Assembly: GCF_048403405.1 (NCBI RefSeq)
Contig: NZ_CP183129.1
Origin: Escherichia coli
GTDB taxonomy: Bacteria; Pseudomonadota; Gammaproteobacteria; Enterobacterales; Enterobacteriaceae
Length of the DNA stretch: 64,000 nt
Direction: 5' to 3' (one strand)
Under the pieces are notes generated by a model. That model was given only the letters and a program-made list of their open reading frames with translations. It was not told where the DNA came from and ran no database searches. Position numbers and translations under genes: made by a program. This document shows, one piece after another, positions 28,777 through 28,948 of the stretch. Numbering within the stretch: the first letter of the stretch is position 1; every line of letters begins with the position of its first letter.

Positions 28777-28883
28777 TCTATTAACCCACCTTAATATTCA
28801 TGTTTTCTGTTACTCAGCACACTTTCATAAGTATATATAATTTTCATGCTCAAAATGTGATCAACCTCAAATAATAATAACAA

Positions 28884-28902
28884 TGCAAATGATATTAATT
28901 CG
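28884..28902. promoter_or_regulatory. candidate Fur box in the divergent promoter region
   Basis: GCAAATGATATTAATTCGC matches the 19-bp Fur consensus GATAATGATAATCATTATC at 13/19 and lies within the imperfect inverted repeat AATGCAAAT-N7-ATTCGCATT, ~45 bp upstream of the receptor start. Confidence 0.35.
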
Positions 28903-28948
28903 CATTAACATTTCGGCGTAAAGTGCCATTGCACATTTTGGGGTTTAT

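What the first reader, a model, noticed from the sequence alone, without database searches (positions are those of the whole stretch)
28777..28948. Candidate Fur operator in the divergent siderophore promoter region
The only intergenic region between the nine-gene biosynthesis operon and the receptor gene contains a 13/19 match to the Fur box inside an inverted repeat. Iron control is expected for a siderophore locus, and no YbtA-like activator is present, so Fur may be the sole regulator.
Basis: partly seen in the sequence, partly recalled or inferred. Interest (0 to 1): 0.3.

Follow-up and report, generated by a model that had tools for sequence, protein, structure and literature searches.

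The report
Fur box in nrp siderophore promoter
The short gap between a siderophore-synthesis operon and its receptor gene holds a good, conserved binding site for the iron repressor Fur, but this is the known iron-regulated nrp locus of the mobile element ICEPm1, so the finding is sound and ordinary.

Summary
Window 28885-28903 matches the 19-bp Fur consensus 13/19, and the overlapping 28891-28909 matches 14/19. The site sits on its own dyad: AATGCAAAT / ATTCGCATT, 8/9 complementary, centre 28894. A 13/19 count alone is not above chance, because 48 such sites occur in the window. A weight matrix learned from 15 E. coli K-12 Fur-controlled promoters tells a different story. It scores 28888-28906 (AATGATATTAATTCGCATT) at 21.3 bits, the best site in all 64 kb and above the median of known sites, with shuffle P = 0.0003. 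A diverged Salmonella copy of the locus keeps this 19-mer 17/19, against 62% identity for the rest of the spacer. Distant receptor orthologues in GC-rich purple bacteria carry their best Fur hit just upstream.

The locus is the nrpXYRSUTABG operon plus receptor PMI2596 of the Proteus mirabilis element ICEPm1. A 2024 review, citing Himpsl et al. 2010, says the cluster is iron-induced, contains Fur consensus sequences and lacks a YbtA-type regulator. It is therefore already known. Fur binding itself has not been shown, and no transcription start is mapped. The idea that Fur is the sole regulator is doubtful, because a conserved CRP-like site (28853-28874) lies beside the box.

The parts
28888..28906 (.). 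Core Fur box AATGATATTAATTCGCATT
   Evidence: Scores 21.3 bits with a matrix learned from 15 E. coli K-12 Fur promoters without supplying the consensus. It is the best site in the 64-kb window. The leave-one-out median of the known sites is 19.1. Shuffle P = 0.0003.
28885..28909 (.). Two overlapping classical 19-mers shifted by 6 bp: 28885-28903 (13/19) and 28891-28909 (14/19). This is the layout expected for two Fur dimers.
   Evidence: 15.5 and 14.9 bits. P for such a pair in dinucleotide shuffles is 0.0002.
28882..28906 (.). Inverted repeat AATGCAAAT-N7-ATTCGCATT (8/9), with its dyad at 28894
   Evidence: Read. The same pairing appears in the fold. It coincides with the box's own symmetry.
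28867..28884 (.). AT-rich hexamer run (AATAAT AATAAC AATGCA) in 6-bp register with the box. It may allow Fur binding to extend outward.
   Evidence: Weak matrix hits at 28867, 28873 and 28879, in phase with 28885 and 28891. The extension is inferred only.
28853..28874 (.). CRP-like site AAATGTGATCAACCTCAAATAA
   Evidence: It is the only match to TGTGA-N6-TCACA with at most one mismatch in the window, and the best 22-mer match, 16/22. The diverged copy L002 has TGTTA-N6-TCACA at the same aligned position.
28826..28845 (.). Conserved TATATATA block, a candidate -10 element (TATAAT at 28836-28841 on the plus strand; TATACT at 28835-28830 on the minus strand)
   Evidence: 16/20 identical with L002, against 62% for the spacer overall. 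The plus-strand hexamer is listed and the minus-strand hexamer is read. Its role is not established.
28871..28898 (-). Predicted sigma-70 promoter towards nrpX (-35 TTAATA at 28898-28893, 16-bp spacer, -10 TATTAT at 28876-28871). The Fur box covers its -35.
   Evidence: 9/12 match, no better than the shuffles give. It is not conserved in L002. Tentative.
28883..28911 (+). Weak predicted promoter towards the receptor gene (-35 ATGCAA, 17-bp spacer, -10 TAACAT), lying entirely under the Fur box
   Evidence: a low score. Tentative.
28785..28792 (-). Ribosome-binding site of nrpX (AAGGTGGG on the minus strand), 8 nt before the GTG start at 28776
   Evidence: Read. It lies inside the 30-bp block that is 93% conserved in L002.
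27463..28776 (-). nrpX, an MFS transporter and the first gene of the nine-gene nrp operon (5213-28776)
   Evidence: Pfam MFS_1, RefSeq annotation, review.
28949..30937 (+). TonB-dependent receptor gene (PMI2596 of P. mirabilis HI4320)
   Evidence: Pfam Plug and TonB_dep_Rec_b-barrel domains. 100% identical proteins occur in P. mirabilis, Providencia, E. coli and Klebsiella.

Best explanation
The spacer is the shared control region of the ICEPm1 nrp siderophore locus, with nrpXYRSUTABG to the left and the receptor gene PMI2596 to the right. When iron is plentiful, Fe2+-Fur dimers of whichever host carries the element bind the dyad-symmetric operator centred on 28894-28897. The core is 28888-28906, the two overlapping 19-mers span 28885-28909, and binding may extend over the in-phase AT-rich hexamers down to about 28867. 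The operator lies 40-64 bp upstream of the receptor ATG and 109-133 bp upstream of the nrpX GTG, in a spacer too short to hold promoters far from it. Bound Fur would therefore block RNA polymerase, or an activator, at one or both divergent promoters. When iron is scarce Fur leaves and both transcripts rise. Established here or in the literature: the site's quality, its conservation, and iron-induced expression of both transcripts. Inferred: Fur binding itself, which promoter elements are covered, and whether one array controls both directions.
For: The matrix scores match those of known E. coli Fur sites. The site scores 15.5 and 14.9 bits in the classical frame, where the leave-one-out median of known sites is 15.7. 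It scores 21.3 bits in the frame found without the consensus, where that median is 19.1. It is the top-scoring site of the 64-kb window. In 90.7 kb of K-12 sequence outside the training regions, the only hit of 15 bits or more lies in the 86-bp fecR-fecA spacer upstream of fecA; from general knowledge the fec genes are Fur-controlled. Shuffle P is 0.0003 to 0.006. No 172-bp tile of the equally AT-rich nrp coding DNA reaches 15.5 bits. In the Salmonella-borne variant L002, whose coding DNA is 86-89% identical, the most conserved 19-mer of the spacer is 28887-28905 at 17/19, against 62% overall, and the spacing is unchanged. In 8 of 11 GC-rich orthologous receptor loci the best Fur hit of the whole roughly 10-kb locus sits just upstream of the receptor, at up to 22 bits. 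Roseospira has nrpY- and nrpR-like genes divergent from the receptor, with two Fur hits in the spacer. The review PMC11026637, citing Himpsl 2010, reports that PMI2596-2605 is up-regulated under iron limitation by microarray and qPCR, is made as two transcripts, and contains Fur consensus sequences.
Against: No Fur binding, fur-mutant or transcription-start data were found for this promoter. Himpsl 2010 could not be read directly, so the published box position is unknown to me. Promoter predictions are weak and disagree with each other. The elements conserved in L002 (the TATATATA block and the CRP-like site) suggest the nrpX promoter may lie 50-70 bp from the box rather than under it. The DNA is AT-rich (35% GC), which raises the chance of Fur-like matches. 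A natural C-to-T change at 28903 in P. mirabilis ATCC 29906 lowers the score by 2-3 bits.
Confidence: 0.8

Rival explanations
1. The box is a true Fur operator but directly controls only the receptor promoter. The nrp operon would then be driven from a separate CRP-dependent promoter (-10 TATACT at 28835-28830, with the CRP site centred near -41) and would respond to iron indirectly, or through Fur interfering with CRP.
For: The TATATATA block and the CRP-like site are both conserved in L002. The CRP site centre at 28863.5 is about 40.5 bp from the start expected for that -10, which is the class II activation geometry (my reading plus general knowledge of CRP promoters). The box lies much nearer the receptor ATG, 40-64 bp, than the nrpX start, 109-133 bp.
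Against: The review reports that both transcripts are iron-induced. E. coli has compact divergent Fur-controlled spacers with one strong site, such as the 110-bp fepD-entS spacer. No transcription start is mapped.
Confidence: 0.2
2. The match is a chance product of AT-rich spacer DNA, and iron control is exerted elsewhere, for example by another regulator, a small RNA, or silencing of foreign DNA by H-NS.
For: A 13/19 match is common, with 48 sites in the window. The spacer and the island are 30-39% GC. A stronger classical-frame hit at 30050 is plainly a by-product of coding sequence.
Against: Shuffle P is 0.0003 to 0.006. The site ranks first in the window. It is the best-conserved block in the diverged copy. 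Distant orthologous loci carry Fur boxes in the same place.
Confidence: 0.07
3. The dyad AATGCAAAT-N7-ATTCGCATT is the operator of a different dimeric regulator, such as Zur or another Fur-family protein, rather than Fur.
For: A perfect Zur-type half-site TAACATTTC (Zur consensus recalled from memory) abuts the box at 28906-28914 (read). From general knowledge, yersiniabactin-type compounds can also carry zinc.
Against: Only one Zur half-site is present, and it is not conserved in L002, where the aligned bases are GCTCATTTA. The dyad fits the Fur matrix at the level of strong known sites.
Confidence: 0.05

Closest known systems
The nrp (yersiniabactin-related) siderophore locus PMI2596-PMI2605 on ICEPm1 of Proteus mirabilis HI4320 (Himpsl et al. 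2010; Flannery et al. 2009, 2011)
   Same: This is that locus. Gene order and content match: an MFS transporter, a methyltransferase, two megasynthases, a reductase, a thioesterase, two ABC transporters and a PPTase, with a divergent TonB-dependent receptor. The receptor is 100% identical to P. mirabilis and Providencia proteins. The ICE genes and taaP lie next door. The review says the cluster is iron-induced, contains Fur consensus sequences and lacks a YbtA-like regulator.
   Different: Nothing of substance differs. The window is 99.7-100% identical to copies of the element in 13 complete E. coli genomes, so it may come from a host other than Proteus. I could not read where Himpsl 2010 or Gaisser and Hughes 1997 placed their Fur box.
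Compact divergent Fur-controlled promoters of the E. coli enterobactin cluster (fepD-entS, fepA-fes, fepB-entC)
   Same: Each has a short spacer between a siderophore operon and a transport gene, with one strong Fur site. The 110-bp fepD-entS spacer has a single site of 19.8 bits in the classical-frame matrix and also faces an MFS gene. From general knowledge, single Fur sites there repress both directions.
   Different: The sequences are unrelated. In E. coli the promoters and Fur footprints have been mapped, and here they have not. A CRP-like site beside the box is an extra feature in this locus.
Yersiniabactin promoters of the Yersinia / E. coli high-pathogenicity island (psn/fyuA, irp2, ybtA-ybtP)
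   Same: The biosynthetic enzymes are related (Irp3-like reductase, thioesterase, HMWP-like synthases, paired ABC transporters). Repression by Fur at promoter Fur boxes is shared, from general knowledge of the ybt system.
   Different: The high-pathogenicity island also needs the AraC-type activator YbtA, which binds repeats in those promoters. No AraC-family gene was found in this window. According to the review, salicylate synthesis and loading genes are also missing. The receptor is only 27% identical to Psn.

Membership tests
Fur operator (Fur box) | Sequence matches the Fur-box model as well as experimentally known sites do | tested here: met
   15.5 and 14.9 bits in the classical frame, where the leave-one-out median of 15 known E. 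coli promoters is 15.7. 21.3 bits in the frame found without the consensus, where that median is 19.1.
Fur operator (Fur box) | Dyad symmetry suited to a dimeric repressor | tested here: met
   AATGCAAAT-N7-ATTCGCATT, 8/9 complementary, with its centre at 28894, the centre of the box.
Fur operator (Fur box) | Lies in the promoter region of iron-uptake genes and overlaps the core promoter elements | tested here: inconclusive
   It lies in the only spacer between the siderophore operon and the receptor gene, 40-64 bp from the receptor ATG. Predicted promoters overlapping it are weak, and no transcription start is known.
Fur operator (Fur box) | Conserved in related loci | tested here: met
   17/19 in the diverged copy L002, against 62% for the spacer. 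Fur hits lie upstream of 8 of 11 distant receptor orthologues.
Fur operator (Fur box) | Metal-dependent Fur binding shown by footprint, EMSA, Fur titration assay or ChIP | not testable with these tools
   No such data turned up in the literature searches.
Fur operator (Fur box) | Iron-repressible, fur-dependent transcription of the flanking genes | not testable with these tools
   Iron-limitation induction of PMI2596-2605 is reported by the review citing Himpsl 2010. Dependence on fur has not been reported.
nrp locus of ICEPm1 | The nrpXYRSUTABG gene set with the divergent receptor PMI2596 | tested here: met
   Pfam domains and gene order, RefSeq annotation, and the description in the review.
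nrp locus of ICEPm1 | Near-identity to the Proteus / Providencia copies and a position inside a conjugative element | tested here: met
   Receptor 100% identical. The spacer differs by 1-2 bases. TraD, TIGR037xx ICE genes and taaP lie alongside. ICEPm1 is described as carrying an iron-acquisition module.
Yersiniabactin-type regulation (YbtA plus Fur) | A linked AraC-family activator (YbtA-like) | tested here: not met
   No HTH_AraC or HTH_18 hit in any window ORF scanned. None is annotated in the stretch fetched. The review states the same.
CRP binding site | Match to the 22-bp CRP consensus, with core TGTGA-N6-TCACA | tested here: met
   9/10 on the core, the only such match in the window. 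16/22 overall, the best in the window. L002 keeps 16/22 at the aligned position (my count). CRP binding itself is untested.

The most novel reading that the evidence does not exclude
The locus may carry a self-contained two-way switch built only from sites for regulators that every enterobacterial host has: one Fur array plus an adjacent conserved CRP-type site. With no pathway-specific activator such as YbtA, the ICE-borne siderophore system would be correctly repressed by iron and tuned to carbon status in any new host (Proteus, Providencia, Morganella, E. coli, Klebsiella, Salmonella). Fur might act here partly by displacing CRP rather than only by blocking RNA polymerase.
Probability: 0.3. 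Interest if true: 0.3.

Novelty: already known. Interest (0 to 1): 0.12.

Why it matters
The nrp system adds to the fitness of Proteus mirabilis in urinary tract infection. It travels on a conjugative element now found in E. coli, Klebsiella, Providencia, Morganella and Salmonella. Fixing the exact operator (28885-28909) and noting the neighbouring CRP-like site gives a precise target for reporter and mutation work. It also helps explain how the locus can be regulated in many hosts without its own activator. It does not change the accepted picture, which is that siderophore loci are Fur-repressed and that this one was already reported as iron-induced with Fur consensus sequences.

Tried and rejected
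- **Plain consensus counting.** 13/19 or better occurs 48 times in the window, so the count cannot separate the site from background. I replaced it with weight matrices.
- **The stronger classical-frame hit at 30050-30068** (18.6 bits). It lies inside the receptor gene and encodes the conserved peptide NDIYNY in AT-rich codons. It recurs at the same place in L002. I treat it as a coding by-product.
- **The long-range inverted repeat** CAAAATGTG (28851-28859) / CACATTTTG (28932-28940) as an RNA structure. Its fold is no better than shuffles, z = -0.6.
- **Known RNA families in 28600-29100.** None at E of 1 or below.
- **Small ORFs in the spacer.** Only 20-42 aa mechanical ORFs, with nothing to support them.
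- **The Zur reading.** There is only one half-site and it is not conserved.
- **A search for diverged enterobacterial copies to compare.** Plasmids gave no match. The 13 E. coli copies are 99.7-99.9% identical and so uninformative. The 86% variant P0039 has no retrievable contig. Only L002 was usable, and there IS elements have broken up the spacer.
- **Himpsl 2010 and the 2018 EcoSal review.** Neither is held in the library. The published position of the Fur box could not be compared with mine.
- **Promoter prediction.** It gave no clear answer.

Full report
**What is in the sequence**

The coordinates 28777-28948 are the 172-bp spacer between two divergent genes. On the minus strand is a gene for an MFS transporter (27463-28776). 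It heads nine tightly packed genes running from 28776 down to 5213: methyltransferase, a 2034-aa NRPS, a 3071-aa PKS/NRPS, an Irp3-like reductase, a thioesterase, two ABC transporters and a phosphopantetheinyl transferase. On the plus strand is a TonB-dependent receptor gene (28949-30937).

The spacer contains GCAAATGATATTAATTCGC at 28885-28903, a 13/19 match to GATAATGATAATCATTATC. An overlapping 19-mer at 28891-28909 matches 14/19 on the other strand. The box sits on its own dyad: AATGCAAAT (28882-28890) and ATTCGCATT (28898-28906) are 8/9 complementary around 28894.

**Is it more than chance?**

Counting matches does not settle this, because 48 positions in the window reach 13/19. I fetched 15 promoter regions of E. 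coli K-12 genes known to be under Fur control: fepA-fes, fepD-entS, fepB-entC, fhuA, fecI, cirA, fiu, tonB, exbB, fur, fhuE, fhuF, feoA, sufA and ryhB. From these I built a symmetric weight matrix.

- In the classical frame the two overlapping sites score 15.5 and 14.9 bits.
- The leave-one-out median of the known sites is 15.7.
- Only one other position in the 64 kb scores higher.
- No 172-bp tile of the equally AT-rich nrp coding DNA reaches 15.5.
- No position in 90.7 kb of K-12 DNA outside the training regions reaches 14.9.
- Dinucleotide shuffles of the spacer give P = 0.006 for one such site and 0.0002 for the 6-bp-shifted pair.

To avoid circularity I repeated the motif search, seeding from promoter 19-mers instead of the textbook consensus. 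It converged on AATGATAATCATTATCATT. With that matrix AATGATATTAATTCGCATT (28888-28906) scores 21.3 bits. That is the best site of the whole window and above the leave-one-out median of the known sites (19.1), with shuffle P = 0.0003. The only hit of 15 bits or more in the non-training K-12 DNA lies in the 86-bp fecR-fecA spacer, just upstream of fecA. From general knowledge the fec genes are Fur-controlled, so I do not count that hit as a false positive.

**What the locus is**

The siderophore cluster is AT-rich (30-39% GC). It is embedded in 52-61% GC DNA that encodes conjugative-element proteins: TraD, DUF4400, an SLT transglycosylase, the TIGR037xx ICE families, a YadA-type adhesin annotated taaP, integrases and IS elements.

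The segment is 99.7-99.9% identical to a chromosomal island in 13 of 5426 complete E. coli genomes. The receptor is 100% identical to proteins from Proteus mirabilis, Providencia, Morganella, Klebsiella and E. coli.

This is the nrp ('yersiniabactin-related') locus PMI2596-PMI2605 of ICEPm1. The review PMC11026637, summarising Himpsl et al. 2010, makes the following points:

- nrpXYRSUTABG is transcribed divergently from the receptor gene PMI2596.
- The cluster is made as two transcripts.
- It is up-regulated under iron limitation, by microarray and qPCR.
- It contains consensus sequences for Fur binding.
- It lacks a linked regulator analogous to YbtA.
- It contributes to fitness in experimental urinary tract infection.

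A second paper confirms that ICEPm1 carries an iron-acquisition module. The original papers were not available to me. No fur-mutant, Fur-binding or transcription-start data turned up.

**Comparative evidence**

A diverged copy of the locus on a contig from a sequencing run, whose receptor NCBI names as Salmonella enterica (L002), has coding DNA 86-89% identical to the window. IS elements have been inserted into its spacer. The retained promoter segment aligns without gaps across the box, and overall identity is 62%. The most conserved 19-mer is 28887-28905, at 17/19. A second conserved island is AGTATATATA (28826-28845, 16/20).

More distant receptor orthologues (41-55% identity) occur in purple bacteria whose fetched loci are 64-71% GC, where Fur-like matches are very unlikely by chance. 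In 8 of 11 such loci the best Fur hit of the whole roughly 10-kb locus lies just upstream of the receptor gene. Examples are Magnetospira at 22.2 bits, Thiorhodococcus at 19.7, Phaeovibrio at 19.1, Imhoffiella at 17.7 and Roseospira at 17.3.

In Phaeovibrio an nrpX-like MFS gene is divergent from the receptor gene. In Roseospira visakhapatnamensis, nrpY- and nrpR-like genes are divergent from it, with two Fur hits in the 475-bp spacer. Fur control of this receptor family therefore looks ancestral.

**Mechanism**

The best-supported model is ordinary Fur repression. Fe2+-Fur dimers bind 28885-28909. They may spread over the in-phase hexamers AATAAT AATAAC AATGCA, since weak hits at 28867, 28873 and 28879 lie in 6-bp register. 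The operator is 40-64 bp from the receptor ATG and 109-133 bp from the nrpX GTG.

Which promoter elements it covers is not settled. One consensus scan finds a minus-strand promoter whose -35 lies under the box (-35 TTAATA at 28898-28893, -10 TATTAT at 28876-28871). A weak plus-strand pair, ATGCAA-17-TAACAT, lies entirely under it. Neither is strong, and neither is conserved in L002.

The conserved TATATATA block could instead supply a -10 element: TATACT on the minus strand at 28835-28830, or TATAAT on the plus strand at 28836-28841. Mapping the transcription starts would decide between these.

**The 'sole regulator' suggestion**

I confirm that no AraC or YbtA-like gene is present among the window ORFs scanned or in the RefSeq annotation of the stretch fetched, which starts at about window 7400. 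The review agrees.

However, AAATGTGATCAACCTCAAATAA (28853-28874) is the only match in the window to the CRP core TGTGA-N6-TCACA with at most one mismatch. It is also the best 22-mer match, at 16/22. L002 has TGTTA-N6-TCACA at the same aligned position, also 16/22, with the opposite half-site intact.

If the minus-strand -10 is TATACT, this site would be centred near -41, which is the class II CRP geometry. That point is inference. Fur is therefore probably not the only input.

**Verdict**

The feature is real, statistically sound and conserved, and the Fur reading is very likely right (about 0.8). It is also a textbook arrangement in a locus already described as iron-induced and carrying Fur consensus sequences, so novelty is nil and interest is low. 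What this analysis adds is the exact operator coordinates and score, the comparison with the diverged copy, the natural C28903T variant that weakens the box by 2-3 bits, and the adjacent CRP-like site.

Noticed in passing
window 28853-28874: A CRP-like site, AAATGTGATCAACCTCAAATAA, lies 11 bp from the Fur box. It is the only match in 64 kb to the CRP core with at most one mismatch, and the best 22-mer match (16/22). It is kept at the same aligned position in the diverged copy L002, with the other half-site intact.
   Followed up: partly
window 30050-30068: A strong Fur-like match, GATAATGATATTTATAATT (15/19, 18.6 bits), lies inside the receptor gene. It encodes the conserved peptide NDIYNY in AT-rich codons and recurs in L002 at 5129, so it is most likely a coding by-product.
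   Followed up: partly
window 7694-7712: A Fur-like match of 15.3 bits, TTTAATCATTATTATTCTC, spans the nrpA stop / nrpB start overlap. It could be chance or an internal site. Gaisser and Hughes 1997 reported a putative Fur box for their shorter nrp sequence, but I could not check where.
   Followed up: no
window 28903 (also 28866 and 28920): Natural variants occur in the spacer. P. mirabilis ATCC 29906 has C to T at 28903 inside the box, lowering the score by 2-3 bits, and C to A at 28866 in the CRP-site spacer. Providencia stuartii NCTC11800 has A to G at 28920.
   Followed up: partly
window 4001-32000 against the flanks: The nrp cluster is 30-40% GC cargo inside a 52-61% GC conjugative element. 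It is bounded on the left by IS110 and IS3 transposase genes (1417-3644) and on the right by an IS200 transposase pseudogene (31179-31532). This suggests the module was acquired from an AT-rich donor.
   Followed up: partly
L002 2165-4000: In the diverged copy, IS elements sit between the nrpX leader and the Fur/CRP promoter segment. About 460 bp of unrelated DNA then separates that segment from the receptor gene, whose 5' end is replaced. Both genes are probably uncoupled from the original control region.
   Followed up: partly
L005-L016 (genome-contig loci): The closest non-enterobacterial relatives of the receptor (41-55% identity) are all in phototrophic purple bacteria and their relatives: Phaeovibrio, Roseospira, Rhodospira, Pararhodospirillum, Magnetospira, Thiorhodococcus and Imhoffiella. 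Some have an nrpX-like MFS gene or nrpY/nrpR-like genes alongside. This is an unexpected phylogenetic neighbourhood for a uropathogen siderophore system.
   Followed up: partly
window 28906-28914: TAACATTTC matches one half of the Zur-box palindrome (consensus recalled from memory) and abuts the Fur box. The other half is absent, and the half-site is not conserved in L002.
   Followed up: partly
window 47367-49655: A YadA-type trimeric autotransporter adhesin gene, annotated taaP in RefSeq, sits inside the conjugation (type IV secretion) gene block of the element.
   Followed up: no
window 95-442 and 61858-62901: A fragment with an ArdC-type metallopeptidase domain lies at the left edge of the window, next to the IS elements. 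A full-length ArdC-like gene lies near the right edge. This may be a duplication or a rearrangement scar linked to insertion of the nrp module.
   Followed up: no
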